32,000 bases of DNA, taken from Bellilinea caldifistulae (GTDB lineage: Bacteria; Chloroflexota; Anaerolineae; Anaerolineales; Anaerolineaceae). The notes under the pieces are model-generated. The model searched no databases and was not told the origin of the DNA. It worked only from the letters and a program-made list of their open reading frames with translations. The stretch is from NCBI RefSeq assembly GCF_001306055.1, contig NZ_LGHJ01000019.1:227986-259985 (forward strand). Reading direction: 5' to 3'. This document shows, piece after piece, positions 2,364-28,376 of this stretch. The position numbers and the translations under genes are program-made. Position 1 is the first letter of the stretch. Each line of letters begins with the position of its first letter.

Positions 2364-4070
2364 TTGAAGATTATTTCTGGGTTTAACCCTGAGAGGTATA
2401 AACCTACCATGGATCCATTAAAAATAGGCTCTCATACTCGCTTTAATTCCCCTCAAAATCTTTTCTGGTCCGGTGACACAGCCGCACTTTCCACGGATGT
2501 TGAAATCATTCGCCAAAGACTGTTATCCTTAGACTCACCCTTGTTGGTGGTAACTGACGGTCAGAATGTCTGGCTCACGGATGAGGGAACCATCCTGCCA
2601 GGGGAGAAAAACTCCACCACCTCCTACCGCTGGCTGGCAACCCTGCCTCCTTCACCAATCGAATCGCTTGGTGATTCATCTTTTCAGGAATGGTACGGCT
2701 GCCGTTACGCTTATTACAGCGGCGCCATGGCCAACGGGATTGCCTCCACCCGCCTGGTCATTGCCATGGGCAAAGCCGGTTTTCTGGCATCCTTTGGTGC
2801 GGCAGGTCTTTCCCCCGAACGGATCGAGGCGGCTATCCACGAAGTTCAAACTGCCCTGCCGCAAGGGCCGTATGCCTTCAACCTGATCAACAGCCCAAAT
2901 GAACCCGCCCTGGAACGTCGCGCGGCCGAGTTGTATGTCCAACACGGCATTCGCAGCGTGGAGGCTTCCGCTTATCTGGAAATTACCCCTGCCCTGGTGT
3001 ACTACCGCGCCAACGGATTAATCAGTCAGCCGGACGGTACAATCCGCATTCAAAACCGGCTGATTGCAAAATTATCCCGTAAAGAAGTCGCCCGTCAGTT
3101 CATGCTCCCGGCCCCTGATGAGATCCTCAATCAATTGGTGCAGGAGAACCGATTGACCGAAACTCAGGCAAATCTCGCCCGCCGTGTTCCAATGGCCGAC
3201 GACATCACCGTTGAGGCTGATTCGGGAGGACACACCGATAACCGCCCATTAGTGGGACTGCTCCCATCTATTCTGACCCTGAGGGATGAGATTCAAGATC
3301 AAATGCAGTACCCCGTTCCGATTCGAATTGGCGCAGCCGGGGGAATCAGCACACCTCAGGCAGCCCTGGCAGCGTTAATGATGGGGGCTGCTTATATTGT
3401 CACCGGTTCGGTCAATCAGGCCTGTATTGAGGCCGGGGCATCCGAACACACCCGCCGCCTGCTCGCCCAGGCCGACATGGCGGATGTTACCATGGCACCT
3501 GCCGCCGACATGTTCGAAATGGGCGTCAAAGTCCAGGTTTTGAAACGCGGCACCATGTTTGCCATGCGGGCTTCCAAGCTCTACGAATTGTATTCCCGCT
3601 ATCCATCCCTTGAAGCCATCCCCGTTGAGGAACTTCAAAAACTGGAAAAGACCGTTTTCAAGCGCCCAGTCGAAGAAATCTGGCAGGATACGGTGCGATT
3701 CTTCCAGCAGCGCGATCCGCGTCAGTTAGAAAGAGCCGAGAAAGATCCGCGTCATAAAATGGCGCTGGTCTTTCGCTGGTACCTGGGACTGTCTTCCCGC
3801 TGGTCAAACAGCGGTGAAAAGGGCCGCGAGATGGACTACCAGATCTGGTGCGGGCCGGCAATGGGAGCTTTCAACGAATGGGTGCGGGGGACCTATCTTG
3901 AAAAGCCTGAAAATCGTTCTGTCGTAGATATTGCTCTCCACATCCTGACCGGGGCGGCATATTTGCAGCGTGTCCGTTTGCTGAACGCCTACGGCGTCCA
4001 AACAAGCCCTGATCTGGAGCGTTACCAACCACTCCAGCCATTGACAGAGTCTATCCTCGAAAAGGCTTGA
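2364..4070 (+). CDS. pfaD: PfaD-family trans-acting enoyl reductase (FMN TIM-barrel, nitronate-monooxygenase-like)
   Basis: PfaD/FabK-type motifs are present: YAYYSGAMANGIAS, ITVEADSGGHTDNRP, IRIGAAGGIS, VTGSVNQ. The track start is TTG 2364. ATG 2409 (MDPLKIG), preceded by GAGAGG, is a more likely start. Confidence 0.8.
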   Translation: MKIISGFNPERYKPTMDPLKIGSHTRFNSPQNLFWSGDTAALSTDVEIIRQRLLSLDSPLLVVTDGQNVWLTDEGTILPGEKNSTTSYRWLATLPPSPIESLGDSSFQEWYGCRYAYYSGAMANGIASTRLVIAMGKAGFLASFGAAGLSPERIEAAIHEVQTALPQGPYAFNLINSPNEPALERRAAELYVQHGIRSVEASAYLEITPALVYYRANGLISQPDGTIRIQNRLIAKLSRKEVARQFMLPAPDEILNQLVQENRLTETQANLARRVPMADDITVEADSGGHTDNRPLVGLLPSILTLRDEIQDQMQYPVPIRIGAAGGISTPQAALAALMMGAAYIVTGSVNQACIEAGASEHTRRLLAQADMADVTMAPAADMFEMGVKVQVLKRGTMFAMRASKLYELYSRYPSLEAIPVEELQKLEKTVFKRPVEEIWQDTVRFFQQRDPRQLERAEKDPRHKMALVFRWYLGLSSRWSNSGEKGREMDYQIWCGPAMGAFNEWVRGTYLEKPENRSVVDIALHILTGAAYLQRVRLLNAYGVQTSPDLERYQPLQPLTESILEKA

Positions 4071-4109
4071 AAGGCTTGCCTCAACAGGACGACAAGCCCC
4101 GGGTCCATT

Positions 4110-4877
4110 TCATTCGCTCAGTTGAATTTCCCGCAAGCGAATAGATGGAATTTCACCGGTTTGTAGTTGAACCGCCAGCGTGACCATGTAGTTGCCGCGT
4201 TGCTGCCACCAGCCAATTAACCGATGGCCTTCTTCCGGCAAATTGCTGCGGTATTCCAAAATCCGCCAGTCTCCCAAATTCGTTGCCATGCCGGGAAACA
4301 CCTGAATCAGGTGAGTATCCACAGCCAACCCGAGCCGCAAAGCCTTCAGGGCGGCCTCTTTGGCGCTCCACAATAATGTGGTACGTCCCGCCTGTGCCTC
4401 TGTGGGGGCTGAAATTACCCATTCGATTTCTTCACCGGTGAAGTAATCCTGCAAGAACGCAGGATGCCGTTCCTCAATCCATTCCAGGTCAATCCCAATC
4501 CAGATACCCTCATTTGCGGTATAGGCTGCCGCCGCTCGTTCGCTGCGGTGAGAGATGCTCAGACAACCAGCCAGCGGTTCACCACCCACTTTAACCAGCG
4601 GATAGCCGTGATGGTGATTTTCAACCGAGATTTCAGCCATCGTCTTTCCGGCAAGAGCCGGAACAACACTCAGCAGCATCCGTTTGGCCGTCCAGCGGCC
4701 GCTCAACCATTCGCTGCGCCGCTTGGGGAATCGAATTGTTTCCAGGAAACGCTGTTCCTCGTGAGACAACCAGCTGGTATCAAAAATGGTGAGGTCTCCC
4801 CTCTGCGGGAAAACCTCACCGATGCACCAATCTAAATTGATCTGGCGCTGCCTTTTAGAGAGTGGCATCTGTCCCAT
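4110..4877 (-). CDS. Sfp-type 4'-phosphopantetheinyl transferase (PfaE-like)
   Basis: It has the WIGIDLE and WSAKEAALKA (W-x-x-KE-x-x-K) PPTase signatures. Its ATG at 4877 overlaps the last 23 nt of the megasynthase ORF, which suggests translational coupling. Confidence 0.8.
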   Translation of the reverse strand: MGQMPLSKRQRQINLDWCIGEVFPQRGDLTIFDTSWLSHEEQRFLETIRFPKRRSEWLSGRWTAKRMLLSVVPALAGKTMAEISVENHHHGYPLVKVGGEPLAGCLSISHRSERAAAAYTANEGIWIGIDLEWIEERHPAFLQDYFTGEEIEWVISAPTEAQAGRTTLLWSAKEAALKALRLGLAVDTHLIQVFPGMATNLGDWRILEYRSNLPEEGHRLIGWWQQRGNYMVTLAVQLQTGEIPSIRLREIQLSE

Positions 4878-7800
4878 TGACCAGTAATTTCATCGGTTTA
4901 AGCAGTGCCGCATCTACGGTGTAGGGCAATGCCACAGTCCGGTAATCCTTCACTTCCAGGTAGACCATGCCGTTCTGATCCACCAGCCTGGCATCAAATG
5001 CCAGACTGCCATCACTCGATCGGCTGGGAATGACCTCGGCAAACAATGGCTTGTCCTCCTGCGGCACACTGCGATGCAGCACCAGTTCGCCAATTGAGCG
5101 CGGTAATGCCAATGTGCCGGTCGCTCCCGCTTCCCAGATGCCAGCAGTCTGCAAAATCGCTTCCAGCAAAATCGGCATGGTTACCAACGAGACCGGCTGC
5201 TCGGTGATAGCCGGCAGGGATTCACGGACTTTGCCCAACACCTTCCCCTCCACCCGTTGGACGCCTTCCAGGACTTGGAAAGAAGGGCCGTGGAAGTAGA
5301 GACGATAGATCTCATCGCTGGCAACGGTGTAAGCGCCGTTCCAACCGGGCGGTTGAACTTTAACCGATGCAGATTTTTCCGTCTTTGGGGTCAAATAAAC
5401 TTTTCCGGCAAAGTGCTGGATGACTTCATTCGGACGAGTTTTAGCAACCAGGGTCGATTCAAGGCTGACATAAGCCACCAAACCACTCGCCTCGCGGATT
5501 ACTCTGGCTTTCCAGGTTACCCGGCGCGGTTCGTTGCGGTAGAACTTGAAGGGAGCCAGGAATTGAACATCTTCCAGACGTTCAACTGCAAAGCCGACTT
5601 TTTCAGCACCCAACACTGAAGCAACATGCTTCGCCGCCGCTGAAAATCCTTCAATTCCCATCACCCCCGGCAGCAAGGGGATTCCGTTCAAAGCATGGTC
5701 TTTGAGAAACGGCTGGTCATTCGGATTCAATTCGGCTTCCAGCAGCACACCGGTTTGCAGGTCAAAGCCGTTCACTGCGCTGAGCATGACATGCGCCGGG
5801 CTACCTTCGCGTAAAGCCTGATTAGCGGCTTCCAGGTTCAAACCGCTCTCCTTGCGGAGCGGTTTTTCCAGAACACCCAACGAACCGGAAACTACCACCT
5901 CACTGACCGGCTCATTCCCTACCAGTTCTTCATAAACAAAGCGGGCTGCCTGCTTCGGAGGCATCTGGTCAATCCCGCCCATTTCCATTAATTGAGGAAT
6001 ATATCCGCGACTCGCCATCCCCACCTGCGCCCAGGCGCTCCAATCAATGGTGACCACCCGCATTTCCGGGTGCAGACCACGCAGGTGAGAAGCAGCCTTT
6101 GCCAGCCAGTCATTGGCAGCACTGTAATCGGTCTGACCGGAATTGCCAAACCTGCCGGCAACCGAACCAAACAGCAACACCTGCTTTGGCAATCTATCCG
6201 CTGTTTGAAGGGCTTTGTAAAGATTGAAGAAACCTCCGGCTTTAACCTGAATAGTCGTACGGAATTCTTCCTCCGGTTTGAGATGCAGCTTTCGGCTGCG
6301 TTCAATGCCGGCTGCATGAATCAGGACATCCACGCGACCATTCTCCTCGACAATCTGACCAATGGTCTCCCCTACCTGATGAGGATCGGTAACATCACAT
6401 AACCGGTAGACCACGCTGGCTCCAAGTGAACGGGCAGTCTGAATGGCATCCAGAATGCCAGCCATACGCTCCAATGCAGCCAGTTTCTCTTCCACCTGCG
6501 CAGGGGAAGGTTTTTGTCCGTTGGCGCTCATTTCTCTGAGCAGGTCTTTTTTCAAGCCATCCCGATCCGCTTTTAATCGCTGGAGGGCTGCATCCTGAGG
6601 ATCGGCTAACGGACTGCGTCCCAGCAGGTAGAAGATGCCCTGCGTTCGCTGTGCCAGATCCGTAAGGATTGGCGCAACAATACCGCCAGCCCCGCCGCTG
6701 ATAATCATTACCGGTTTCTCAGGTAGAGTTGATTGGACCGGATTGTTTCCTTCTTCTTCAAAGAGGGCAATGCTAAAGCGCTGATCGCCCTCCCAGCCGA
6801 CTTCAACCACAGAGGCATCGCCGAGCGTCTCTCCGACCAGGCGGGCAGCAATCTGGCTATCATTTGCGCCTGCTTCAAAATCTACCACCTTGACCAACGC
6901 GTTTGGCCGTTCACGGCTAATAGCTTTGGCAAAGCCGGAAATCAAACCGCCCGAAACATTCTTAGCCGCAGTTACGCAGGTTCCATGCAGGCCGCCCATG
7001 CGGGTTGCACAGATCAAGAAAGGCTCACCTTCCACCATCCGGAGCAAGTGATAGAGGCGTACCAGGCGATTATCTACCAGAGATTGCCAGACACGAACAT
7101 CCTGTTCCGCCAGTGATGGCTCATGGTTCAAACCGACCAGGTAATACAAACCCTGAACCCTGCCAGTGCTTTGGAAGGAGGCAACTTTTTCCTGCCATTC
7201 CTCGGGCGTCTGGGAGGAATCCAGAGTCAAAATTTGGACTTTGCGGGCGCGCAACCTGCGGGCAAGGGAATCGGCTGTTTTGCCTTCATCACTCACCAGA
7301 ATCACCCTGCTGTTTTCATCTAGAGTGACTCCGCTCGGCAGACACAAATCCAATTTCGGCAGCAGCACCGGTTTTGGAACCCTTCGGCGGATGAGAATTT
7401 GCGTCTCTGCCGGCTCTTCGGTTGGTTTAGGCTCTTCAACGGTCTCCATGGCAACCGGAGCTTGCACCTCTTTGGTTGACAGCGCCTGCGCCGTCGGCTC
7501 TTTTGTTGAAACGGACTCAACAACAGGGGTAGCGGTGACAGGTTTTTCTTCGGAAACGGGCAGTTCCTCGGTGCTGGTCGCCTTCCCATTCGTTGATAAC
7601 GCCTCAACCATGAAGCCGATGACTTTTTTCAAGGTGTTGTAATCCACCAACCTGAGGTCTTCCCGCCGCGGGATGTTGTAGTGGGTGCGGATAGTCGCAA
7701 ACAGTTCCGCCTGTTTTACCGTGTCAATTCCTAAATCGGCTTCCAGGTCCAAATCCAAATCCAGCATTTCAACCGGATAGCCCGTCTTTTCACTGACAAC

Positions 7801-10800
7801 CGACAGCACGTAGGTTTTAATTTCCTCTTCATCCACACCGGAGATGGAAGTCCGTGTTGGTGTTGAAGAAGGCTGTTCGCTCTCAGCCTGGACTGGTGCC
7901 GATACTTCGGCAGGTTCAACCGCCTTGCTGACCGGCTGGGCAACCGTTGTAGCAGCCGGTTGAGACTGACTGACAACCCCGCTGCTCAAAGCGTCCACCA
8001 TGAAGTCAATCACCTTCTCCAGGGTGTTGTAATCCACCAGCCGCAGGTCTTCCCGCCGCGGGATGTTGTAGTGGGTGCGGATGGTAGCAAACAATTCAGC
8101 CTGTTTGACGGTATCAATCCCTAAATCGGCTTCCAGGTCAAGCCCCAGGTCGAGCATTTCAACCGGGTAACCGGTCTTTTCACTGACCACTGAAAGCACA
8201 TATTCTTGAATGGCTGCCCGGTCAACGGCCGGGGCTGCAGAAAGAGACGGGACTGATTGAGCCACCTGCATAGGTATCGGCTGAGGTTCAGACTTATCCG
8301 AAGCAGGCATGGCTACATCTTCAGCCGGTTGAGCCTGAGCAGCTATCGCAGCCGCATTTTCCGCCATGAAGGAAATCACTTTGTTGAGGGTGTTGTAATC
8401 AACCAGCCGCAAATCTTCCCGTCTGGGGATGTTGTAATGCGTTCGAATTGCAGCAAAGATTTCAGCTTGTTTCACCGTATCAATGCCCAAATCGGCTTCC
8501 AGATCCAGATCCAAATCCAGCATCTCGACCGGGTAACCCGTTTTTTCACTGACCAGATTGAGAACAAATTCTTTGATCTCATCTACCTTGACCGGTGATC
8601 TGCCGGCGGGCGAGGAAGTTCCCAAGACAACAGGCTGGAGTTTTTCCTTTTCTTCAACCGCTTCAACAGGATGAGCGGCAGGCTGCGGACTCGGCACACC
8701 GACCGGTTGAGATTGCGGCAATTGATCCGGCTGCTCTGCCCAGCGGGTAGGTCCCTGCCCATACTGCCAGCGGGATTTAGCCGGCGGTTTAACCGGCGGT
8801 CCCATGTGGCGGATCCGGAGAGTGCGTTTTTCCACCTCCAATTCGGCTTTTTCGTAACCCGCAATTTCCGCCAGCCATTGCTGATAGACTGGTTGATTGA
8901 TCCTTTCCTTTACATGGGCAACCACCCGGAATAACGCCATGGCAATTTGCGAGCCAAAACCGGCCCCCAACCGCAGAGCATAACTGACCGGGTATTCACC
9001 GCCTTTTGATAGGTTCAAATCACCCAGATCCGGGTCGGGTTCAAAATTCTCATCATAATTGGCAATCGGCGGCACAATTCCATGTTCCAGGGCTTTGATC
9101 GCCACAACATCTTCAATCCCCACGCCCATTGCATGACCGGTGTACCCTTTGGTATTTGCGATGATCACCTGATTGGCTTTATCGCCAAAGGTGTATCGGA
9201 GTGCCTGAATCTCCGCGGAAGCCGAACCGCCTCTGGCGGGGGTGTAGGTTTCGTGAGACATGAACATGGTTTGAGCGGCAATTTCTTCCCGGCGAATACC
9301 AAAACGCTGCTCGGCCGTGCTGATCAGGCGATTCATGATTTCCCGCACATGGGGAACATCCAGGCGGGTTCCATGATAAGCGCTATTGGCGATATCCGTC
9401 GCCAACACCTCACAAATCGCCCGCATGCCGCGTTCTCGCACCGCATCTTCGGACTCAACTACCAGTGCGGCCGCCCCCATTCCCATGATCATCCCATTCC
9501 GCCGGCGGTCAAACGGCAAAGCAGCCATACGCAGATTACCTTCTGTGGTAGCCGCACCAGAAACGAACAAGCCGGTTCCAATCCACTCCGCCAGCGGACC
9601 GCCGGTCACATCGTCACCCGCAATGATGACGACTCGGCGGCAACGTCCGGCGCGAATCCAGTCTTCAGCAACCGCAATCGCATGGGTTGTGGTGGCACAG
9701 GCAGCGTTGACATGCGTATTCGGGCCGCGTGCGCCAATATATTCAGCAAATTGCGAATGCCCCATTGAAAGCACCCGGAAGACAAAACGGCGATCAAAAT
9801 GGTAATCCATCTCTTTGAGCCTTGTTTCCAGTGCTTTGATTCGCTCGCGCAGCAGGTTTCTCACCCCCGTCTGATCCACTGCGACCAGACTGAGAATGTT
9901 GCGCACTTCTTCTAACTGCTTCTCAACTTGCTTGTATTCGGAATAACGCGACATCTCTTCCGCCATTTCATCCAGCCCCGGGAAGGCAGAAGCAAAGATC
10001 ACACCGGTTTCATCAGCCAGCGCTTCTGGCAAGCGCCAGCGGTCGGGGAGATAAGTGCCTTTACTGGTCTTACGATAGGCCATTACCAGGGGAATTCCGG
10101 CATCCCTCAAAGCTTCAATGCCGGCAGCCACTGCGAGTTGGGTGGTAATATCCCAGGCATCCGCACGCTCTACCGGAATGCCGAACTCTTCCACCGGATC
10201 AAATTGCCCGCGCTGTCCACCCAACTTTACGGTCAAATCCACGCTTTCAATCGGGATCATCTGGGCGCCGGCTTCGCTTTTTTCCAAACGGGTTGGCCGC
10301 TTTTCCACCATTCGCTTGCGCAATTCTTCCGGCAAAGGTTCAATGCGGATTTCGCCTTTTAAAATACTCAGGATATTCTCATCATTGAAAACGGGTTTTG
10401 ATCTGCCCGGCAGCCCCAAGCCTGCACCGCTGATCACGACCGAACCCGTCAATGGCAGGCGACCGTCGTTGACCGGTGTCTGTACTTCAACCATCGGTTT
10501 TACAGACGCGCTAATCGCAACCGGGGGGACTGATTTCACACTTACCTCATCAATAGCGGATTTTTGAGTGGACACTTGTGCTGGCGTTTCAAGTTTCTGT
10601 TCTCGACCGGGCGCAATTCCCGCTGCCAGCAGACCACAAACTGCTTCGTTAAAACTGACCACTGCACCTTTTCGGGGATGATTGGTTGCCAGCAGCATGA
10701 CACCCGAGCGGTCTTTGAAAATATCATTTGCCAGAGCGTTCAATACCCGTTTCGGCCCAATCTCGACAAAGACTCTTGCTCCGGCATTATAGAGCGTTTC

Positions 10801-13410
10801 CATGCCTTTAATAAATTGCACTGGCGAGGCAACCTGCTTTCCCAAAATATCCAGAATCTGTTCCCGGCTGGTGGGGTAAAACTCGCCGGTCACATTGGCT
10901 GCCACCGGAATCTTGGGGGATTGCAGGTTCATACGCGCAATAACCTGTTTGAGGGGCTCGCTTGCCGGGGCAACAATTTTTGTGTGGAACGCATGAGAGA
11001 CAGAGATGCGGGTGGCCTGGTAACCGGCTTTTTCAAAAGCCTCTAAGGCAGCCTGAATACCTGCCGTGCTGCCACCCACGACCGATTGCATGGGGCTATT
11101 GATGTTGGCGATGACCACATATTCCGAGATTTCCTGTAAGATCCGTTCAACCTCTTGAATGGGAGCAGAAACTGCCACCATACCACCATTATCCGCCACC
11201 GAGACTTTTTTCATCTCACGGCCGCGTGCCGAAACGACTTCCAAAGCCTCCGCAAAAGTCAATACGCCGGATGCCACCAGTGCGGCATATTCCCCAAGGC
11301 TGTGACCAATCACAAAATCGGGGGAAAACCCGAATTTCTCCATCAACCGCAGCAATGCGACATTGGCCGTCAACATCGCTGGCTGAGTGATCGCCGTATC
11401 CCGTAATGCGGCTTCGGCTTGTTTTAACGATTCTTCGTCCCCCTCTACATAAATGTAACTGGTTAAGGGACGCCCCAAAATGGGTGTCATGATCGCATCA
11501 GCCTCTTTGAAGGTATCCGCTACAAGTGGTTCGGCTTCGCACAGGTCTTTGAGCATGTTGACATATTGAGATCCCTGCCCGGGGAACATAAAGGCAACTT
11601 TACCAGCCTTCCCGCTGCCCCGATAAACCCCCTGGGCAGTCAGCGCCTGCCAGGCATTTGGGGCTTCATTGTCGAGCGTTTTAAGCGCTTTTTCTCCCCG
11701 TGAAATCAACTCCTCAACCGATGAGTAGTCAATCACCAATCGCTCGGGCTTGGTTACCATCGCCGCATCTGGCAATTGGGAAGGTGGTAATTGACCCTGG
11801 CGGGCATTTTCTAAAATTTGAGCCAGTTGTTCCTTTAACTGCTGGCTGTTTTCCCCACTCAGGAAGGCGATTCCGCGATAAGGCACGGGCAAGGTCGAAG
11901 AAACCGCTTCCGCCACGACTTGCGGAGCAGGACTTTCCACCTGCGCCGCTTTTCTTTCCGGCACCGCAAACACCTTTGTTTCAGAAGTCAGCAGCCCCGG
12001 CACCCATTCTTCCAGCACCATGTGAAAGTTGGTGCCGCCAAAACCAAACGAACTGACTCCAGCCCGGCGGATTTCTCCAGGGGCATTTTCCCACGGTCGG
12101 GTTTCGGTATTGACGTAAAAGGGAATGCGGTCGAAATCAATATTTGGGTTGGGTTTATGGAAATTCACAGAGGGCGGCAAAACTTTTTCGTACAAGGCGT
12201 ACATGGCTTTCAGGACACCCGCCGCCCCGGCCGCACTCTTCAAATGACCAATATTGGACTTGACCGATCCCATCGCAATGCTGCGCGGTGGCAGACCAAA
12301 CTTTCCAAAAACCTCGTTGAGAGATTGTGTCTCCACCACATCCCCAACCCGCGTGGAGGTGCCATGGGCTTCAATCAAACCCACACTGGCAGGGTTTACG
12401 CCGGCATTCTTCCAGGCCCGTTCAATCGCACGCTGCTGACCAAGAGGATTGGGAGCCGTAATCCCTTTACCTTTGCCATCGCTGCTGGCGCCAACCCCGC
12501 GGATAACCGCATAAATTTTATCCCCGTCCCGTTCAGCATCGGCCAGCCGCTTTAACAAAAAGAGCACAGCCCCTTCGCCCATGACGAATCCATTCGCCCC
12601 TTCAGCGAACGGCCGTGAACCGTCCGGCGAAAGCGCCCCAATCTTACAGAATTTTACGAACCCCTCAACCCCCATATTGCGGTCCACACCGCCCGTCAAA
12701 ACCGCATCAAACTGGTGATTGACCAGCCCGTCAATAGCGGCTTGAACCGCTGCATGAGAAGAAGCACAGGCAGCGTCTGTGATGAAATTTGGGCCAGAAA
12801 AATTGAACACATTGGCAATTCGGCCGGCAATCACGTTGCCCAGTTCACCCGGCATGGTATCTTCGGTAATATTGCTCACCCTTTTGCGGATATTTTGCGT
12901 CATTCCCTCCAGCAGCGCCTTCTGCACTTCTGGTGGTAGTTGGGCAAATGCTTCCACTTCTTTAAGGGCTTCCATATAATCCGGCAGACGAATTCGTAGG
13001 CTGGTTATGTAATGGTTTTCACCCGCCAGCGCATTGCCAATAATCACCGCCGTACGTGTTCCATCAAGGGGTTTCTGCGGGTAACCGTAATCTAAAAGAG
13101 CCTGCCGCGCTACACTGATGCCCCACTTTTGGCTTTCATCCATCACCGCCAGAACGTTTGGTGGAATGGGGATCCCCCATTTCAGCGGCTCGAAGGGATA
13201 AGATCGTACCCACGCCCCAATTTTGGTATAAGTTTTATCCGGTGCTTTTGGATCAGGATCATAATACAAATCCACCCGCCATCGATCGGGCGGAACCTCG
13301 GTCACTGAATATCGCCCTTGCTTGATATTGTTCCAGAATGCAGGCGCATCTTCAGCATCCGGTAAAATTGCCCCCACTCCGACAATTGCAACGGCTCTAG
13401 GATCAAACAT
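4855..13410 (-). CDS. PfaA-like iterative type I polyketide/fatty-acid megasynthase, KS-AT-KS-ACP-ACP-ACP-KR-DH (2851 aa)
   Basis: This is a single uninterrupted 8.5-kb ORF with AAGGAG 6 nt upstream of ATG 13410. Domain motifs are listed in the domain features below. Confidence 0.9.
   Translation of the reverse strand: [2851 protein letters not shown]
4906..5808 (-). other. PKS-type (double hot-dog) dehydratase domain (aa ~2535-2835)
   Basis: It has the HxxxGxxxxP motif in [14 protein letters not shown] (His2572). The position after KR matches PfaA. Confidence 0.7.
5911..7323 (-). other. ketoreductase domain incl. structural subdomain (aa ~2030-2500)
   Basis: It has the Rossmann motif [10 protein letters not shown] and the SDR catalytic context GQTDYSAAN. 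Confidence 0.75.
7585..7827 (-). other. carrier (ACP-like) domain 3
   Basis: The domain sequence is near-identical to domain 1. The attachment position is Thr1897 (ACG, 7720-7722). Confidence 0.75.
7975..8217 (-). other. carrier (ACP-like) domain 2
   Basis: The domain sequence is near-identical to domain 1. The attachment position is Thr1767 (ACC, 8110-8112). Confidence 0.75.
8341..8583 (-). other. carrier (ACP-like) domain 1
   Basis: Sequence is [50 protein letters not shown]. The attachment position is Thr1645 (ACG, 8476-8478). Confidence 0.75.
8926..10449 (-). other. KS2: second, divergent ketosynthase domain (aa ~988-1495)
   Basis: It has [23 protein letters not shown] with Cys1238 (codon 9697-9699), [12 protein letters not shown] and [13 protein letters not shown]. 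Cys and both His are present, so this is not a CLF. Confidence 0.7.
10696..11601 (-). other. malonyl-CoA:ACP acyltransferase domain (aa ~604-905)
   Basis: It has [20 protein letters not shown] with Ser704 (codon 11299-11301), and SHAFHT. Confidence 0.85.
12007..13401 (-). other. KS1 domain (aa 4-468)
   Basis: It has TDAACASS with Cys215 (codon 12766-12768), [11 protein letters not shown] and [14 protein letters not shown], giving a complete C-H-H triad. Confidence 0.85.
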
Positions 13411-13753
13411 TTTTCTCTCCTTTGAAAGAAGGTGTTTTTTTTCAGGTATCGCTAAAATGGATAAACCATGTCTTAGAGAGACACGGCAAATTTACTAACA
13501 GACTGGATTGCTATTCAGAAGGATGAGAAGGATGAGAGTACAGGTACACAACCTTCCAATTTCTCCGATCGAACAAACCCTATCAAGACAGCCCTCCAAA
13601 AATCGCCTTTTCTGGTTGATAAACTCTGAACGTAATAACCCCTTTACAGACAGGGAGTTACGTAAAAAGAACGGTTTTTCCAACATATCAAACAGGTGGT
13701 ATCAAGAAATTTACACGTGGTATACTCAATCTGTCTGATTTTCTCACAAACGG

Positions 13754-14404
13754 ATGCAAATAACCATGATGGAGTTTATTCAACACTTGACCCCTCCCGA
13801 ACAATTGGAATGGGAATCGCTGAATTCCCCTCTTGCCATTCAAAACTTTTTGGACAGCTTACCCTATATCGGTGAAGAGCGGAACCGTTCCCCCTTGAAT
13901 GTTCTGCGTGACCGCCAATGCCACTGCCTGGATGGGGGTTTATTGGCTGCATTAGCCCTCAGCCGCCTCGGATTTCCCCCGTTGCTAATGGATCTCGTAC
14001 CTGAACCCGGAAAAGATGATGATCATGTTCTCGCAGTTTATCGGATCAATGGTTTTTATGGAGCAATTGCCAAATCCAATTTCGTGGGTTTGAGGTTTCG
14101 CGAGCCGGTATACCGCTCGCTGCGGGAATTAGCCATGTCCTATTTTGAGGCTTTTTACAACATCAACGGAGAAAAAACTCTCCGCGGGTACACCCGGCCG
14201 CTGAACCTGAACCGTTTTCAGCATCTGGATTGGGCGGTGAATGAAGAACATGTCGCCATCGTAGTTGACCACTTTTACTCCCTCAAAAGCATCCCTTTGC
14301 TTACCGCAGAGAGCATTGCGCTCCTCTCCCCGATTGACCGCCGTTCTTACGAAGCCGGGATGTTTGGCACCAATTTTGAAGGTCTCTACCGGCCAGGCAT
14401 TTAA
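13754..14404 (+). CDS. transglutaminase-like / NAT-like Cys-His-Asp fold protein
   Basis: It has QCHCLDGGLLAALALSRLG (nucleophile Cys on a helix N-terminus) followed by DDDHVLAVYRINGFYGAIAKSN. The gene is transcribed divergently from the megasynthase. Confidence 0.5.
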   Translation: MQITMMEFIQHLTPPEQLEWESLNSPLAIQNFLDSLPYIGEERNRSPLNVLRDRQCHCLDGGLLAALALSRLGFPPLLMDLVPEPGKDDDHVLAVYRINGFYGAIAKSNFVGLRFREPVYRSLRELAMSYFEAFYNINGEKTLRGYTRPLNLNRFQHLDWAVNEEHVAIVVDHFYSLKSIPLLTAESIALLSPIDRRSYEAGMFGTNFEGLYRPGI

Positions 14405-14898: not shown

Positions 14899-15891
14899 AT
14901 GTTCAAGAAAACCTCGACGGTTGGTGTCGCCACAGCAATTGCCCACCCCAATATCGCCTTCATTAAATACTGGGGAAATCGGGACAATGAATTGCGCCTT
15001 CCGGCAAATGGTTCAATTTCAATGAATCTGGATGGGTTGACAACCCGCACAACCGTTCGATTCGAAACCAGACTTAAGAACGATACTTTTATCCTCAATC
15101 AAAAAATTCAGGGCGGAAAAGCACTTCAACGTGTCAGCGCCTTTCTGGATATTGTCCGAAAAAAGGCAAATTTCAATTACTTTGCCGAAGTCGTCTCCGA
15201 GAACAATTTCCCCACCGGCAGCGGACTGGCCTCCTCCGCGGCAGCCTTTGCCGCACTCAGCCTGGCTGCCACTAAGGCGGCGGGGCTCAATCTTAATCGC
15301 CAGGAACTTTCGGCCCTTGCCCGGCGTGGATCGGGCTCTGCCTGTCGTTCGATCCCAGCCGGCTTCGTTGAATGGCTGCCGGGCAGTGAAGATGAAGATT
15401 CCTATGCCATTTCCATTGCACCACCCAATCACTGGGAATTGATTGACTGCATCGCCATCGTAGAATCCGATCACAAATCCATCGGTTCGACCGAAGGACA
15501 TCAGCTGGCTGCCACCAGCCCCCTTCAAGCGGCACGGGTCGAGGATGCCCCCCGCCGTCTGGATATCTGTCGGCGAGCCATCCTGCAAAAAGATTTTGAG
15601 GCCTTGGCTCAAATTGTTGAATTAGACAGCAATCTTATGCACGCTGTAATGATGACCTCTACACCACCATTATTCTATTGGAATCCTGCCTCAATTGACT
15701 TGATGAAAAAAGTACGCGATTGGCGAGATGCGGGTTTACCGGTATGTTACACCCTGGATGCCGGCCCCAACGTGCATATGATTTGTCTCAACGAAGCCCT
15801 GAACGAGGTAAAATTCCGGCTTCAGCAAATCCCGGCCGTGGAGCAGGTTCTCGTCTGCCGGCCTGGAGGAGCTGCAACCGTATTAGAATAG
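14899..15891 (+). CDS. mvaD: diphosphomevalonate (or phosphomevalonate) decarboxylase, GHMP family
   Basis: It has AHPNIAFIKYWGNRD, SISMNLD, NNFPTGSGLASSAAAFAAL and RRGSGSACRS. Confidence 0.85.
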   Translation: MFKKTSTVGVATAIAHPNIAFIKYWGNRDNELRLPANGSISMNLDGLTTRTTVRFETRLKNDTFILNQKIQGGKALQRVSAFLDIVRKKANFNYFAEVVSENNFPTGSGLASSAAAFAALSLAATKAAGLNLNRQELSALARRGSGSACRSIPAGFVEWLPGSEDEDSYAISIAPPNHWELIDCIAIVESDHKSIGSTEGHQLAATSPLQAARVEDAPRRLDICRRAILQKDFEALAQIVELDSNLMHAVMMTSTPPLFYWNPASIDLMKKVRDWRDAGLPVCYTLDAGPNVHMICLNEALNEVKFRLQQIPAVEQVLVCRPGGAATVLE

Positions 15892-15915
15892 GCAAATGCT
15901 TGCTTTTAACTCTTT

Positions 15916-15944
15916 TTGCACACCGGACACAAAACGGATATAAT
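15916..15944 (+). promoter_or_regulatory. sigma70-like promoter TTGCAC-17 nt-TATAAT upstream of the rseP-like gene
   Basis: The -35 TTGCAC is at 15916-15921, followed by an exactly 17-nt spacer and the -10 TATAAT at 15939-15944. This is about 45 nt upstream of GTG 15990. Confidence 0.5.
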
Positions 15945-15989
15945 CTGTTTTAGAAAACACAATCAACCGTCCGGAAAGGATGTTATACG

Positions 15990-17063
15990 GTGAATTTACT
16001 GACTTTACTGGAATTCATCCTGTTTTTTGGGGTGATGTTATTTGTGCACGAATTTGGTCACTACCTGGTTGCCAAGCTTTTCAAGATTCGGGTTGAGGAA
16101 TTCGGTTTTGGCTTTCCTCCCCGCCTTGTCAAATTATTTAAAATCGGAGAAACCGACTTTACCCTGAACTTAATTCCCTTTGGGGCTTTTGTACGGCTCT
16201 CCGGCGAAAACGATCCTTCCGTGCCGGGTGGCTTTGGCAGCGCCAATCCCCTTGCCCGAATCGCCGTTCTGCTTGGCGGTCCGGTAATGAACCTGCTCCT
16301 GGGTGTTGTTCTTTTCTCAGTCATGTTTACTCAGACCGGTATGCCGGATACGCGCAAAGTCATGATTGCCTCGGTTGCGGAGGGATCTCCTGCCGCGCAG
16401 GCTGGAATGGCCGTTGGGGACTTAATTATCCGCGTCAATCAAACCCCCGTCACCAGCATGGAGCAATTGATTGCCACTGTTCAGGAAAACAAAGGAAAAG
16501 AAGTAACCATCACTCTTCTCAGGGGGGATCAGGAAATTTCCGTCCAGGCTGTTCCCCGCGTTCAACCCCCGCCGGGCGAGGGAGCGTTGGGCATCTCCAT
16601 GACCAATCCAATTACCAGCGTATCCTGGTTTGAAACTGTACCGGTGTCCTTCAGGGCGACCTTCGAGCAAGCGCGCATGATTTTGGAAATGCCGGGGCGA
16701 CTGATCCGCGGCGAAGTTTCCGGCGAACAGGCACGAGTTGTCGGACCGGTAGGCATCTACTCCATGTTTTCTCAGGCTCGCGAGATGGATGAAGAAAACG
16801 CCGCCTCGACCGATCCCTTTGAACGCACCCTCACTCTGCGTCTGATGACGGTGATTACCATTGCGCTGGGGTTGACCAACCTCTTCCCCATCCCTGCTTT
16901 GGACGGCGGACGAATTTTATTCATCCTCCCTGAGGTAATTACCCGCCGGCGTATCCCGCCTCAGTATGAAAACCTTGTTCACTTGATTGGCTTTGTAGCA
17001 TTGATTTTATTGATGTTTTACATAACGGCTCAAGACATTCTTAACCCTATTCAACTACCTTAG
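15990..17063 (+). CDS. rseP: RIP site-2 zinc metalloprotease (M50, RseP family) with PDZ domain
   Basis: It has HEFGHYLVA (HExxH) in TM1, a PDZ-like segment AEGSPAAQAGMAVGDLII, and the NLFPIPALDGG motif. Confidence 0.85.
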   Translation: MNLLTLLEFILFFGVMLFVHEFGHYLVAKLFKIRVEEFGFGFPPRLVKLFKIGETDFTLNLIPFGAFVRLSGENDPSVPGGFGSANPLARIAVLLGGPVMNLLLGVVLFSVMFTQTGMPDTRKVMIASVAEGSPAAQAGMAVGDLIIRVNQTPVTSMEQLIATVQENKGKEVTITLLRGDQEISVQAVPRVQPPPGEGALGISMTNPITSVSWFETVPVSFRATFEQARMILEMPGRLIRGEVSGEQARVVGPVGIYSMFSQAREMDEENAASTDPFERTLTLRLMTVITIALGLTNLFPIPALDGGRILFILPEVITRRRIPPQYENLVHLIGFVALILLMFYITAQDILNPIQLP

Positions 17064-17087
17064 GCTTGAACGAATGGAAGATCGAAA

Positions 17088-18143
17088 ATGACCTCCTCAA
17101 CAAAACGAATTGTTCCCTTTGATGAAATCCTGGCCGCCCTTTTAGATGACAGCCGGCCGTTTCCGCCCGTATTTTTGCACCGCTTTTCAGACCTCACTCC
17201 AACCGATTTGACCAAATTAAAAACCATTTGGCCGCAAATTTCGCCTCAGCGCCGAATTGCGCTGATGGAAGACCTTGAAGAATATGCAGAAATTGACACC
17301 CTGGTTTCCTTTGATGATCTAAGCATTTTTGCACTGGATGACGAAGAGCCGCGCGTCCGCTCTGCCGCTTTAGAAATCCTTTGGGAAACGGATAACGAAA
17401 AACTCGTCCCCAAATTCATTTCCATGATGGAAGAAGACCCCGATCCATTGGTGCGTGCCACCGCCGCCAGCACATTAGGAAGATACGTCTTTCTGGGAGA
17501 GCTGGAAGAAATTTCCCCCAAAATTTTAAAGCGGGTTGAGGATCATCTGCTTGCGGTTGCGCAAAGCTCGGAAGTGCCTCTCGTCCGTCGGCGAGCTGTT
17601 GAAGCATTGGGTTACTCCAGCCGCCCCGAAGTCAAACCATTAATTCTTGCCGCCTATAATAATGACGACCCGGAGTGGCTGTGTTCGGCTCTGTTTGCCA
17701 TGGGACGATCGGCAAGCCAGGAATACATTCCCGCCGTCATTGATCAGTTGGACCATCCGGATCCCGAAGTGGTATTTGAAGCCGTGCGCGCCGCTGGTCA
17801 GTTGAGCGCCGGAGCTGCCCGTGAAATCCTTTTGGAAATGCTGGAATCCGGAATCGAGGATGATGAATTACGCATGGCAGTCATCTGGTCTCTTTCCGAA
17901 ATTGGCGGCGAGCAAGTCCGCAATGTATTGGAAAACCTTCTCGATCAATCCGAAGATGCCGAGGAAGCCGACTTCTTGCAAGATGCACTGGATAATCTCT
18001 TCCTGACGGAAGGACTGGTCTCCTTTGAGATGTTTGATTTCGAGCCGCAGGATGAAGATGATCTGAGCTCCATCATCAACCTCGAAGAAGAGGAAGAAGA
18101 GGACGACAACCCAGAAGATCATCGGTATTACCGAAACAATTAA
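17088..18143 (+). CDS. HEAT-repeat protein with acidic C-terminal tail
   Basis: The PBS-lyase-type HEAT signature xPxVRxxAxxALG recurs: EPRVRSAALEIL, DPLVRATAASTLG, VPLVRRRAVEALG, DPEVVFEAVRAAG. The tail reads EEEEEEDDNPED. Confidence 0.7.
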   Translation: MTSSTKRIVPFDEILAALLDDSRPFPPVFLHRFSDLTPTDLTKLKTIWPQISPQRRIALMEDLEEYAEIDTLVSFDDLSIFALDDEEPRVRSAALEILWETDNEKLVPKFISMMEEDPDPLVRATAASTLGRYVFLGELEEISPKILKRVEDHLLAVAQSSEVPLVRRRAVEALGYSSRPEVKPLILAAYNNDDPEWLCSALFAMGRSASQEYIPAVIDQLDHPDPEVVFEAVRAAGQLSAGAAREILLEMLESGIEDDELRMAVIWSLSEIGGEQVRNVLENLLDQSEDAEEADFLQDALDNLFLTEGLVSFEMFDFEPQDEDDLSSIINLEEEEEEDDNPEDHRYYRNN

Positions 18144-18162
18144 GTTCTTCAAAGGGGGAAAT

Positions 18163-24462: not shown

Positions 24463-24630
24463 ATGCCCAATCAATTACCTCGAATTGAAATCCCCAAAGA
24501 TGAAATCGAGTTCGATTTTATCCGTGCTTCCGGCCCCGGTGGACAGAATGTCAACGGCGTGTGTACGAAAACCCTGACGTCTCCCCAAACCACCCGGTCA
24601 CCTTCCCGGAGCCGTCTTTTGAGAGAATAA
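24463..24630 (+). pseudogene. arfB: 5' fragment of an arfB/yaeJ-type peptidyl-tRNA hydrolase (GGQ, RF-1 domain) gene, disrupted after codon 31
   Basis: My own translation gives MPNQLPRIEIPKDEIEFDFIRASGPGGQNVN, then unrelated GVCTKTLTSPQ... to TAA 24628-24630. At 55 aa it is below the ORF-track cutoff. Similarity ends at about 24555, exactly where the recombinase gene ends. Confidence 0.7.
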
Positions 24631-26662: not shown

Positions 26663-26731
26663 TAAAAACGGTGCGTCTGGATTCGTTTTTCCTTTTGCCG
26701 GCGTTGTACTCCCAAAGCAGCAGGCTGGTAC

Positions 26732-26998: not shown

Positions 26999-27012
26999 CG
27001 AGGGCGAATCCT

Positions 27013-28366: not shown

Positions 28367-28376
28367 GGCCCACAGA

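What the first reader, a model, noticed from the sequence alone, without database searches (positions are those of the whole stretch)
2364..13410. Minimal PUFA-synthase-like locus: one KS-AT-KS-ACP3-KR-DH protein plus PfaD-type ER plus PPTase, without PfaB/PfaC functions
Canonical pfa loci need a PfaC-type KS-CLF-(FabA DH)2 protein to set chain length and cis double bonds. Here only a PfaA-like megasynthase, a convergently transcribed PfaD-like ER and a PPTase are present. The flanks are housekeeping genes (pfk, a C-N hydrolase) on one side and a TGase-like protein on the other. There is no CLF and no FabA-like DH/isomerase. The product is therefore unlikely to be a classical PUFA and may be a different secondary lipid.
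Basis: partly seen in the sequence, partly recalled or inferred. Interest (0 to 1): 0.65.

Follow-up and report, generated by a model that had tools for sequence, protein, structure and literature searches.

The report
Stand-alone PUFA-synthase-like lipid synthase cassette
This is a three-gene lipid-synthase cassette from a family catalogued in 2011 whose product is still unknown, and nearly every carrier domain in that family has a threonine where all known carrier proteins have the cofactor-bearing serine.

Summary
Window 2409-13410 encodes a 2851-aa KS-AT-KS-ACP3-KR-DH megasynthase, an overlapping Sfp-type PPTase and a convergent PfaD-family enoyl reductase (ER). No PfaB, PfaC, CLF or FabA-type dehydratase lies in the 32 kb, nor beside 22 related Anaerolineales loci.

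The unusual FabF-like second KS marks a family found in at least 600 species genomes. These include Roseiflexus and Acidobacteria, the hosts of the "Type R secondary lipid synthase" of Shulse & Allen 2011, whose product is still unknown.

Three points seem new:
- Both KS domains keep the Cys-His-His triad, so the domain that paper labelled "CLF" looks catalytic.
- The PfaD ER is specific to one Anaerolineales clade. All other lineages carry an acyl-CoA-dehydrogenase gene instead, often with ETF and acetyl-CoA carboxylase genes.
- 1009 of 1030 ACP domains in the family read LGIDTVK, with Thr at the canonical phosphopantetheinyl-Ser position.

The most likely function is an iterative type I synthase making saturated or partly reduced acyl chains, not PUFAs. 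Whether it is a secondary or the housekeeping synthase could not be tested here.

The parts
2409..4070 (+). PfaD-family trans-acting enoyl reductase. The ORF is open from TTG 2364; the probable start is ATG 2409, giving 553 aa.
   Evidence: TIGR02814 scores 680 bits against a cut-off of 449, with PfaD_N, NMO and FabD_helical_ins domains. The source assembly aa. GAGAGG lies upstream of ATG 2409. The gene sits next to the PPTase in 22/22 related Anaerolineales loci that extend that far.
4110..4877 (-). Sfp-type 4'-phosphopantetheinyl transferase, 255 aa. Its ATG overlaps the megasynthase stop by 23 nt.
   Evidence: Pfam ACPS 1e-16. Sfp-type motifs are conserved across 83 family PPTases: GxP, SxSH, GIDxE (D130, E132) and W170..K173-E174..K178. 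PDB sequence hits are only marginal.
4855..13410 (-). Megasynthase, 2851 aa: KS1-AT-KS2-ACP-ACP-ACP-KR-DH.
   Evidence: An AAGGAGAG ribosome-binding site precedes the ATG. At least 120 full-length homologs share the architecture.
12001..13398 (-). KS1 (residues 5-470), a PKS/PfaA-type ketosynthase with Cys215, His349, Lys384 and His389.
   Evidence: Pfam ketoacyl-synt, Ketoacyl-synt_C and KAsynt_C_assoc. The catalytic residues are invariant in 120/120 homologs. It matches PDB 6riw 'ORF10' (which I take to be a PfaC KS-CLF didomain; the tool does not say so) over its full length at 9.5e-71.
10690..11601 (-). Acyltransferase (residues 604-907) with GHSLG (Ser704), Arg729 and the HAFH motif, which indicates malonyl specificity.
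   Evidence: Pfam Acyl_transf_1 and TIGR00128 FabD, 229 bits. The motifs are invariant or nearly so: 119-120 of 120 homologs.
8776..10458 (-). KS2 (residues 985-1545), a divergent FabF-like ketosynthase with a helical-hairpin insert. Catalytic residues are Cys1238, His1386, Lys1421, His1426 and gate Phe1485. This is the domain labelled 'CLF' in the Type R description.
   Evidence: The best NCBIfam and PDB matches are FabF (TIGR03150, 148 bits; 1j3n, 2.3e-26), covering the C-terminal two-thirds. The catalytic residues are invariant in 120/120 homologs. It is 25% identical to KS1. The representative library holds 619 cluster representatives at E<=1e-30.
7585..8613 (-). Three tandem ACP domains (residues 1600-1690, 1722-1812 and 1852-1942), each reading LGIDTVK. 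Thr1645, Thr1767 and Thr1897 (codons 8476-8478, 8110-8112 and 7720-7722) occupy the canonical phosphopantetheinyl-Ser position.
   Evidence: Pfam finds three PP-binding domains. PDB alignments place the Thr on the Ser of PigH, S. coelicolor ACP and other ACPs. In the AF2 model (pLDDT 80.8) helix II starts at the Thr, and Foldseek top hits are ACPs with TM 0.76-0.88. The position is Thr in 1009 of 1030 family ACPs. Codons were read.
5851..7023 (-). Ketoreductase with its structural subdomain (residues 2130-2520). Catalytic residues are Lys2390, Ser2416, Tyr2429 and Asn2433.
   Evidence: Pfam KR and adh_short. The region matches TIGR02813 positions 1909-2256. The residues are invariant in 120/120 homologs.
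4924..5763 (-). PKS-type double-hot-dog dehydratase (residues 2550-2829) with HxxxGxxxxP (His2572), the HGPxF motif and Glu2750..Gln2754.
   Evidence: Pfam PKS_DH_N and PS-DH. The residues are conserved in 119-120 of 120 homologs. No FabA-type domain is present.
4788..4820 (-). A 14-bp GC-rich hairpin followed by a T-run. It lies 35 nt past the megasynthase stop, inside the 5' end of the PPTase ORF, and is a candidate attenuator of PPTase expression.
   Evidence: Terminator scan. The fold gives -38.3 kcal/mol with z = -5.2, and an equivalent hairpin with changed stem bases is present in L007 and L008. The function is inferred only.
13411..13753 (-). 5' intergenic region of the megasynthase. 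It holds a block conserved in the closest relatives at about 13602-13662: ACGTAACTCC..GGGGTTA..ACGTTCAGAGTTTATC, an imperfect palindrome.
   Evidence: Alignment of window, L007 and L008; coordinates. No Rfam family matches. The function is unknown.

Best explanation
The cassette is the Anaerolineales form of the 'Type R' PUFA-synthase-like lipid synthase. It is a self-contained, iterative type I synthase that builds an acyl chain from malonyl-CoA on its own tandem carrier domains.

Proposed cycle, with the status of each step:
1. The co-translated Sfp-type PPTase converts the three ACP domains to the holo form. The attachment site is most probably the conserved Thr of LGIDTVK (inferred).
2. 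The AT (Ser704, HAFH motif) loads malonyl units (inferred from motifs).
3. Two catalytically intact ketosynthases extend the chain: KS1 of PfaA/PKS type and KS2 of FabF type. The active sites are shown; the division of labour is inferred.
4. The KR, the PKS-type DH and the trans-acting PfaD-type ER carry out the full reduction cycle.

There is no FabA-type dehydratase/isomerase and no PfaB/PfaC, so cis double bonds cannot be preserved. The expected product is therefore a saturated, or at most partly reduced, chain rather than EPA or DHA.

Chain length, the release mechanism and the physiological role are unknown. No TE or PfaB is present. Release may be a direct transfer to an acyltransferase or a separate hydrolase.
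For: - A complete catalytic inventory, with every active-site residue invariant or nearly so in 120 homologs: KS1, KS2, AT, KR and DH.
- PfaD-family membership of the ER, and Sfp-type motifs in the PPTase.
- The unit megasynthase -> PPTase <- ER is conserved in 22/22 related Anaerolineales loci that extend far enough, while the flanking genes differ.
- The ER-linked loci form one clade in a neighbour-joining tree of KS2.
- 47 of 51 sister-lineage loci that extend upstream of the megasynthase have no PfaD. They carry an acyl-CoA-dehydrogenase gene immediately upstream on the same strand, with ETF alpha/beta and an EtfD-like Fe-S protein in Acidobacteria.
- Two unrelated enzymes of 2,3-enoyl/acyl redox chemistry therefore occupy the same slot. 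This argues that an enoyl-reduction partner is required.
- Acetyl-CoA carboxylase genes adjoin the synthase in 33 of the non-Anaerolineales loci and in two Anaerolineales loci (L018, L029), which points to a dedicated malonyl-CoA supply.
- Tandem ACPs (1-5 per protein, mostly 3-4) are the hallmark of iterative lipid synthases (PMC3098273).
- No FabA-like DH, CLF or second AT is present in the window or the related loci.
Against: - No product is known for any member of the family (PMC3098273; PMC11837533).
- The ER acts in trans, so it could be used only in some cycles, as in PUFA and heterocyst-glycolipid synthases. That would give hydroxy, keto or trans-enoyl groups.
- No release enzyme has been identified.
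- The ACPs lack the canonical Ser, so their activation is itself unproven.
- The rest of the genome could not be searched for pfaB/pfaC or FAS II genes.
- The AF2 model of KS2 was too poor (pLDDT 55) to support any structural argument.
Confidence: 0.55

Rival explanations
1. The cassette is the housekeeping (primary) fatty-acid synthase of Anaerolineales. It makes the C14-C18 acyl chains of membrane lipids in place of a dissociated FAS II.
For: - The cassette was found in every Anaerolineales locus recovered, always embedded among housekeeping genes that differ between genomes, with no sign of a mobile island around it.
- Acetyl-CoA carboxylase sits directly upstream in L018 and L029 and next to the synthase in 33 of the relatives' loci.
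- There is a published suggestion of precedent: Shulse & Allen proposed that the Type M and Type S synthases may be the core FAS in hosts that lack fabA/fabZ (PMC3098273).
Against: - In their comparison with FAS II, Shulse & Allen named only Type M and Type S hosts as incomplete, so the Type R hosts apparently keep it.
- From my own knowledge of the species descriptions, Anaerolineae contain iso- and anteiso-C15 and odd-chain acids. These normally need a FabH-type primer choice that this synthase has no obvious means to make.
- The presence or absence of fab genes in this genome could not be tested with the tools. Searching two Anaerolineae genome papers for fatty-acid and lipid terms found nothing on fatty-acid synthesis.
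Confidence: 0.2
2. The synthase makes a partly reduced long-chain specialised lipid, such as a hydroxy-, keto- or trans-polyenoic chain. The comparison is with the heterocyst-glycolipid synthase (Type F, which also lacks FabA-type DH) or the enediyne PKSE polyene. In this reading the trans ER, and the ACAD of the relatives, act only at selected cycles or after assembly.
For: - The ER is a separate protein, so its use in each cycle is not enforced.
- Many relatives fuse the PPTase to the C-terminus, giving KS-AT-KS-ACPn-KR-DH-PPT. From my own knowledge this recalls the KS-AT-ACP-KR-DH-PPT layout of enediyne PKSE.
- The presence of two different KS domains suggests chain-length-dependent programming.
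- The Type F cluster, which also lacks DH/I domains, makes the lipid part of heterocyst glycolipids (PMC3098273).
Against: - There are no tailoring genes (glycosyltransferase, reductase, thioesterase, type III PKS) conserved beside the cassette in Anaerolineales.
- The strict one-to-one replacement of ACAD by ER, together with the ACC linkage, fits bulk saturated-chain synthesis better.
Confidence: 0.2
3. It is one half of a classical PUFA synthase, and the PfaB/PfaC partners are encoded elsewhere in the genome.
For: - TIGR02813 (PfaA) and TIGR02814 (PfaD) are both above their cut-offs.
- The rest of the 3.7-Mb genome was not searched.
Against: - None of the 80 loci recovered from the family has a PfaC-like gene within reach.
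- The megasynthase carries its own second KS.
- The PfaA score is barely above its cut-off and is split into three stretches.
- From my own knowledge, no PUFA has been reported from cultured Anaerolineae.
Confidence: 0.05

Closest known systems
Type R secondary lipid synthase (Shulse & Allen 2011, PLoS One 6:e20146): Roseiflexus, Ca. Koribacter, Ca. Solibacter, Elusimicrobium
   Same: A single PfaA-like protein with KS-MAT-second KS-like domain-tandem ACPs-KR, followed by a PPTase gene. The KS2 of the window is 54-61% identical to those of Roseiflexus, Bryobacteraceae and other Acidobacteria recovered with the same signature peptides. The product is unknown in both.
   Different: - The published description has no ER. 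Here a PfaD-type ER is always attached, and it replaces the acyl-CoA dehydrogenase that I find upstream in the other lineages. The paper's Type R description does not list that dehydrogenase.
- The 'CLF' keeps a full Cys-His-His triad.
- A PKS-type DH follows the KR.
- The carrier domains have Thr at the attachment site. The paper contains neither 'threonine' nor 'serine'.
Canonical PUFA synthase PfaABCDE (Types A and B; Shewanella, Photobacterium, Moritella)
   Same: The PfaA-like KS-AT-tandem ACP-KR-DH backbone, the trans PfaD ER and the dedicated Sfp-type PPTase.
   Different: - No PfaB acyltransferase and no PfaC (KS-CLF plus two FabA-type DH) is present.
- An extra FabF-like KS is inserted between the AT and the ACPs.
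- The ACPs read LGIDTVK. Canonical PfaA ACPs read LGIDS as far as I recall; that comparison rests on my own knowledge.
Heterocyst glycolipid synthase (hgl, Type F)
   Same: A PUFA-synthase relative that lacks FabA-type DH/I domains and makes a non-PUFA long-chain lipid (PMC3098273).
   Different: The hgl system is split over several proteins. It has a true KS-CLF-AT protein (HglC) and lies in a cluster with tailoring and export genes. None of these is seen here.
Enediyne PKSE (KS-AT-ACP-KR-DH-PPTase)
   Same: An iterative PUFA-synthase-like enzyme with a PKS-type DH and a dedicated PPTase, which is often fused. At least 50 of the 150 family representatives analysed here also carry a C-terminal PPTase.
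   Different: PKSE has one KS, one ACP and no ER partner, and it makes a conjugated polyene released by a dedicated thioesterase. This comparison rests on my own knowledge and was not tested by phylogeny.

Membership tests
PfaA family (NCBIfam TIGR02813) | Whole-protein score above the curated cut-off of 1010.1 bits | tested here: met
   The score is 1040 bits, split into three stretches, the best covering residues 7-932. This is marginal: KS2 has no counterpart in the model.
Canonical PUFA synthase (pfaABCDE) | A PfaC-type KS-CLF with two FabA-type dehydratase/isomerase domains, and a PfaB acyltransferase | tested here: not met
   Neither is present in the 32-kb window or in the 80 related loci. 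The rest of the genome was not searchable.
Type R secondary lipid synthase (Shulse & Allen 2011) | A single pfaA homolog with the order KS-MAT-'CLF'-ACP(3-6)-KR | tested here: met
   The order is KS1-AT-KS2-ACP3-KR(-DH). The description was read.
Type R secondary lipid synthase (Shulse & Allen 2011) | A PPTase gene downstream of the pfaA homolog | tested here: met
   4110-4877 overlaps the 3' end of the megasynthase.
Type R secondary lipid synthase (Shulse & Allen 2011) | Common descent with the Roseiflexus and Acidobacteria members (KS phylogeny in the paper) | tested here: met
   The KS2 signature peptides SHET[YF]TPAR and NTK[GA]xTGH retrieve Roseiflexus (L035, 60% identity), Bryobacteraceae, Terriglobia and other lineages with the same architecture. 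The paper's own strains were not compared directly.
Chain-length factor (CLF) | A KS-like domain that has lost the active-site Cys | tested here: not met
   KS2 has Cys1238, His1386, Lys1421 and His1426, invariant in 120/120 homologs. The Cys is also invariant in the 8 diverse KS2 sequences aligned from the representative search.
PfaD family enoyl reductase (TIGR02814) | Score above the curated cut-off of 449 bits | tested here: met
   680 bits, with the PfaD_N domain.
Sfp-type PPTase | A two-lobed ACPS fold with the Mg/CoA-binding Asp and Glu and the catalytic Glu..Lys | tested here: met
   Pfam ACPS 1e-16 plus a weak 4PPT_N match. D130, E132, E174 and K178 align to the GIDIE and WSMKESFIK motifs of Sfp. 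No structure was predicted.
Acyl carrier protein (Pfam PP-binding) | A four-helix ACP fold | tested here: met
   Three PP-binding hits. The AF2 model has pLDDT 80.8, and the best Foldseek hit, T. maritima ACP, has TM 0.76/0.88 and rmsd 1.6 A.
Acyl carrier protein (Pfam PP-binding) | A conserved Ser at the N-terminus of helix II as the phosphopantetheine attachment site | tested here: not met
   The position is Thr in all three domains of the window and in 1009 of 1030 family domains. It is Ser in only 12 domains from six proteins.
Acyl carrier protein (Pfam PP-binding) | The domain is actually phosphopantetheinylated | not testable with these tools
   This needs mass spectrometry of the ACP co-expressed with the cognate PPTase.

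The most novel reading that the evidence does not exclude
The carrier domains of this whole synthase family are phosphopantetheinylated on threonine, not serine, by their dedicated PPTase, which is always linked or fused. This would be a previously undescribed attachment chemistry for carrier proteins. It would make the synthase orthogonal to the cell's housekeeping AcpS/ACP system and would explain why each locus brings its own PPTase.
Probability: 0.55. Interest if true: 0.8.

Novelty: new variant of a known kind. Interest (0 to 1): 0.6.

Why it matters
- PUFA-synthase-like KS genes are among the most abundant type I KS genes in metagenomes, and over 92% of pfaA-type KS domains fall outside clades with known products (PMC10308959). 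This cassette is a compact, three-gene, culturable-host entry point to one of the largest uncharacterised clades.
- The comparison made here turns a vague 'different secondary lipid' into concrete experiments:
  - an ER/ACAD swap that predicts a required enoyl-reduction step;
  - two active ketosynthases that can be mutated separately;
  - a carrier domain whose cofactor site is Thr.
- If Thr phosphopantetheinylation is real, it changes a textbook rule for carrier proteins and offers an orthogonal carrier/PPTase pair for engineering.
- If the cassette turns out to be the only fatty-acid synthase of Anaerolineales, it would be a new kind of bacterial primary FAS.

Tried and rejected
1. Literature.
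   - No paper characterises the Anaerolineae or Type R synthase. One further call failed on a malformed term.
   - No paper mentions threonine phosphopantetheinylation.
   - This covers only the held open-access library. Two attempts to open the 2014 PPTase review failed.
2. FAS II in the host. No tool can scan a chosen genome. Searching two Anaerolineae genome papers for fatty-acid and lipid terms found nothing on fatty-acid synthesis. I ran no further search on this, because their top-120 lists could not be targeted to one genome.
3. KS2 structure. The AF2 model built on a 16-sequence alignment was poor (mean pLDDT 55). Only the two long helices of the insert were confident, so no fold search was run and no structural claim is made.
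4. PPTase specificity. I compared the one PPTase fused to an all-Ser-ACP protein (P0177) with 82 PPTases from family loci and proteins, whose ACPs are otherwise almost all Thr-type. No convincing specificity position emerged; with n=1 nothing can be concluded.
5. CLF reading of KS2: rejected, because the triad is intact.
6. KS2 as a recent duplicate of KS1: rejected. The two are 25% identical, and KS2 is closest to FabF whereas KS1 is closest to PKS-type ketosynthases and to PDB 6riw 'ORF10'.
7. Riboswitch or known RNA upstream: no Rfam match anywhere in the window.
8. Promoter and terminator scans were at the level of shuffled controls, apart from the one strong hairpin followed up.
Full report
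**1. What is in the window**

- On the minus strand, 13410-4855 encodes a 2851-aa protein. Its domains run, in residue numbers:
  - KS1, 5-470
  - AT, 604-907
  - a second ketosynthase, KS2, about 985-1545
  - three PP-binding domains, 1600-1942
  - KR, 2130-2520
  - a PKS-type double-hot-dog DH, 2550-2829
- The protein reaches the curated PfaA model TIGR02813 only marginally: 1040 bits against 1010, in three stretches.
- A 255-aa ACPS-family PPTase (4877-4110) starts 23 nt before the megasynthase stop.
- On the plus strand, a PfaD-family ER scores 680 bits on TIGR02814 against a cut-off of 449. It ends 39 nt from the PPTase stop, so it is convergent.
- The ER most likely starts at ATG 2409 rather than TTG 2364.
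- The flanks are PFK and a C-N hydrolase on one side. On the other is a 216-aa protein that has no Pfam hit but matches the CPR-C4 cysteine protease (PDB 7ob6) at 2.8e-35.
- Nothing else in the 32 kb is a KS, CLF, AT, thioesterase or FabA/FabZ-type dehydratase.
- The window comes from a 3.70-Mb contig of assembly GCA_001050215.2. Its closest named relatives are Anaerolineaceae, Bellilinea and Anaerolinea genomes.

**2. Are the domains functional?**

I aligned the 120 best homologs, all of them proteins of 2550-3030 aa with the same Pfam content. Every catalytic residue checked is invariant or nearly so:

| Domain | Residues checked |
|---|---|
| KS1 | Cys215, His349, Lys384, His389 |
| AT | GHSLG (Ser704), Arg729, HAFH (the malonyl-specific signature) |
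| KS2 | Cys1238, His1386, Lys1421, His1426, the HETYTP motif, the GFGS loop with its gate Phe |
| KR | Lys2390, Ser2416, Tyr2429, Asn2433 |
| DH | His2572 in HxxxGxxxxP, HGPxF, Glu2750..Gln2754 |

KS2 is therefore not a chain-length factor in the usual sense. Other points on KS2:

- It is only 25% identical to KS1.
- Its nearest relatives in NCBIfam and the PDB are type II FabF enzymes: TIGR03150 at 148 bits and 1j3n at 2.3e-26.
- KS1, in contrast, resembles PKS ketosynthases. It also matches PDB 6riw 'ORF10' at 9.5e-71; I take that entry to be a PfaC KS-CLF didomain, but the tool does not say so.
- The N-terminal third of KS2 is divergent and carries an insert of two long helices. This insert is the only confidently modelled part of an otherwise poor AF2 model (pLDDT 55).

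**3. How common is it, and is it already known?**

- A full HMMER scan of 1.84 billion cluster representatives with the KS2 segment gave 619 representatives at E<=1e-30.
- Domain mapping of the best 150 showed that the dominant layouts are KS1-AT-KS2-ACPn-KR-DH and the same with a C-terminal PPTase fused.
- The best 80 loci come from Anaerolineae, Chloroflexia (Roseiflexus, Kouleothrix, Oscillochloris), Caldilineae and Ardenticatenaceae. They also come from many Acidobacteriota (Bryobacteraceae, Terriglobia, Blastocatellia), Myxococcota, Acidimicrobiia, Calditrichia and Rhodothermales.
- Shulse & Allen (2011, PMC3098273) defined 'Type R' as a single pfaA homolog, KS-MAT-CLF-ACP(3-6)-KR, followed by a PPTase gene. 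They found it in Roseiflexus, Ca. Koribacter, Ca. Solibacter and Elusimicrobium, with no known product.
- The window's cassette is a member of that family.
- I found no later paper that characterises it. A 2025 study still calls the Anaerolineales pfaA-like genes unconfirmed (PMC11837533).

**4. What differs in this lineage**

I compared the gene neighbourhoods of the 80 loci, four loci fetched by protein identity and the window.

- In every Anaerolineales-type locus that extends past the megasynthase (22 of 22, plus the window), the order is megasynthase -> PPTase <- PfaD-type ER.
- The genes around this unit differ from genome to genome.
- In a neighbour-joining tree of KS2, these loci form one clade of 28. 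It holds the 22 ER-linked sequences in the tree, including the window, and six truncated loci. No other locus falls inside it.
- Outside that clade no locus has a PfaD gene.
- Instead, 47 of the 51 loci that extend upstream of the megasynthase have a gene of about 560-580 aa of the acyl-CoA-dehydrogenase family immediately upstream on the same strand. Pfam finds Acyl-CoA_dh_N, _M and _1 in it.
- In three of the four loci without such a hit, my greedy ORF picker kept a long antisense ORF at exactly that position. This probably hid the gene.
- In Acidobacteria this gene is preceded by ETF-beta, ETF-alpha and a membrane Fe-S protein with a CCG domain. Two loci (L040, an Ardenticatenaceae MAG, and L045) have ETF-alpha/beta as well.
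- Acetyl-CoA carboxylase genes (carboxyltransferase, biotin carboxylase, BCCP) adjoin the synthase in 35 loci. Two of these are Anaerolineales loci (L018, L029).
- Shulse & Allen noted the ACC gene in Koribacter. Their Type R description does not include the dehydrogenase or ETF genes.

My reading, which is inference, is that the synthase needs an enoyl-reducing partner. In most lineages this would be an ACAD/ETF system working in the reductive direction, as butyryl-CoA dehydrogenase/Etf does in clostridia (recalled). The strictly anaerobic Anaerolineales would have replaced it once with an NAD(P)H/FMN-type PfaD reductase.

**5. The carrier domains**

While checking the ACPs, I found that all three read LGIDTVK. 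Thr1645, Thr1767 and Thr1897 sit where every characterised ACP or PCP has the Ser that carries 4'-phosphopantetheine.

- Their codons are ACG, ACC and ACG.
- HMMER alignments to solved ACPs all put this Thr on their Ser. The ACPs include the PigH doublet (LGVDSI, LGIDSV) and the S. coelicolor FAS ACP (LDVDSL).
- In an AF2 model of ACP1 (pLDDT 80.8), helix II begins exactly at the Thr. The model superposes on solved ACPs with TM 0.76/0.88 and rmsd 1.6 A for the best hit.
- Across the family the position is Thr in 1009 of 1030 ACP domains:

| Set | Thr at the position |
|---|---|
| Closest homologs | 396 of 398 |
| Anaerolineales loci | 81 of 81 |
| Roseiflexus, Acidobacteria and other-lineage loci | 186 of 186 aligned |
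| 50%-identity representatives | 346 Thr against 12 Ser |

- The 12 Ser cases cluster in six proteins, and one of them has Ser in all five domains detected. The two residues are therefore exchangeable at this site, which supports it being the functional one.
- The PPTase has ordinary Sfp-type motifs, and I could not find a specificity determinant.
- From my own knowledge, the S36T mutant of E. coli ACP is not modified by AcpS. This would make Thr carriers dependent on their own PPTase, in line with the invariable linkage or fusion of a PPTase to these synthases.
- Two phrase searches found no report of Thr phosphopantetheinylation. That is absence from one open-access library only.

**6. Most likely mechanism, and what is unknown**

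Shown:
- a complete and conserved set of condensing, loading, carrier, keto-reducing and dehydrating domains;
- a linked ER and PPTase;
- no cis-double-bond machinery.

Inferred:
- iterative malonyl-CoA extension on three parallel carriers;
- full reduction in most or all cycles;
- a saturated or partly reduced product.

The role of the FabA-type DH domains of PfaC in cis double-bond formation is published (Hayashi et al. 2019, as listed in the references of PMC13291983). The title and abstract of PMC12895367 describe PfaB as the terminal acyltransferase. Both are missing here.

Unknown:
- chain length;
- the primer;
- how the chain leaves the ACP. An alpha/beta-hydrolase gene is adjacent in two relatives only (L004, L006);
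- whether the product is a specialised lipid or the cell's bulk fatty acid.

I rate the housekeeping-FAS reading at about 0.2. Shulse & Allen named only Type M and Type S hosts as lacking fabA/fabZ. Also, from my own knowledge, Anaerolineae make branched and odd-chain acids. I could not test this reading, because no tool scans a chosen genome.

**7. Verdict**

- It is wrong in treating the locus as an unusual minimal oddity, because the class was catalogued in 2011 and is very widespread.
- The Anaerolineales form is a new variant of that known kind, with a PfaD ER in place of an ACAD.
- The family as a whole has two features that the Type R description I read does not give, and that my searches of the held library found in no paper: a catalytically intact second KS, and a near-universal Thr at the carrier site.
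- These features, rather than the 'minimal' gene content, are what make it worth an experiment.

Noticed in passing
window 7585-8613 (Thr codons 8476-8478, 8110-8112, 7720-7722): All three ACP domains read LGIDTVK, with Thr at the canonical phosphopantetheinyl-Ser position. The same holds for 1009 of 1030 ACP domains of the whole family. It is Ser in only 12 domains from six proteins.
   Followed up: yes
L030, L033-L084 (e.g. L035:5020-6765, L075:3352-4212, L074:4165-5169, L081:1247-3424, L033:17543-20573): Outside the Anaerolineales clade, the synthase gene is preceded by an acyl-CoA-dehydrogenase-family gene. In Acidobacteria, ETF-beta, ETF-alpha and an EtfD-like CCG Fe-S membrane protein come before that. 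Acetyl-CoA carboxylase genes follow. This suggests an ETF-driven enoyl reduction coupled to the synthase.
   Followed up: partly
window 4788-4820 (-): A strong 14-bp hairpin followed by a T-run lies just inside the PPTase ORF, 35 nt after the megasynthase stop (-38.3 kcal/mol, z = -5.2). An equivalent hairpin with altered stem bases is present in L007 and L008. It may attenuate PPTase expression.
   Followed up: partly
window 13602-13662 (-): A block about 200 nt upstream of the megasynthase start is conserved in the window, L007 and L008: ACGTAACTCC..GGGGTTA..ACGTTCAGAGTTTATC, an imperfect palindrome. It is a candidate operator, and no Rfam family matches it.
   Followed up: no
window 24551-31326: A probable integrated mobile element. 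It holds a large serine recombinase (24551-26158), an AbiEi-like HTH protein (26159-26662), a 310-aa ORF with no family, a DUF3854 protein (28377-30092) and an HTH protein (30709-31326). GC content rises to 0.57. No tRNA gene is present in the window.
   Followed up: no
window 13754-14404 (+): A 216-aa ORF with no Pfam or NCBIfam hit is a clear homolog of the CPR-C4 cysteine protease (PDB 7ob6, E = 2.8e-35). It is divergent from the synthase gene and conserved beside it only in the four closest loci.
   Followed up: partly
L001, L005, L006, L013, L014, L016, L019-L029: The ACP domains change position between close homologs. One or two copies lie between KS1 and AT, or between AT and KS2, instead of all following KS2. 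Copy number varies from 1 to 5.
   Followed up: no
window 14899-19365 (+): A diphosphomevalonate-decarboxylase-like gene is followed by an M50 site-2 protease, a HEAT-repeat protein and a peptidase-MA protein. This block is syntenic only in L007 and L008. It shows that the host has a mevalonate-type isoprenoid pathway gene.
   Followed up: no
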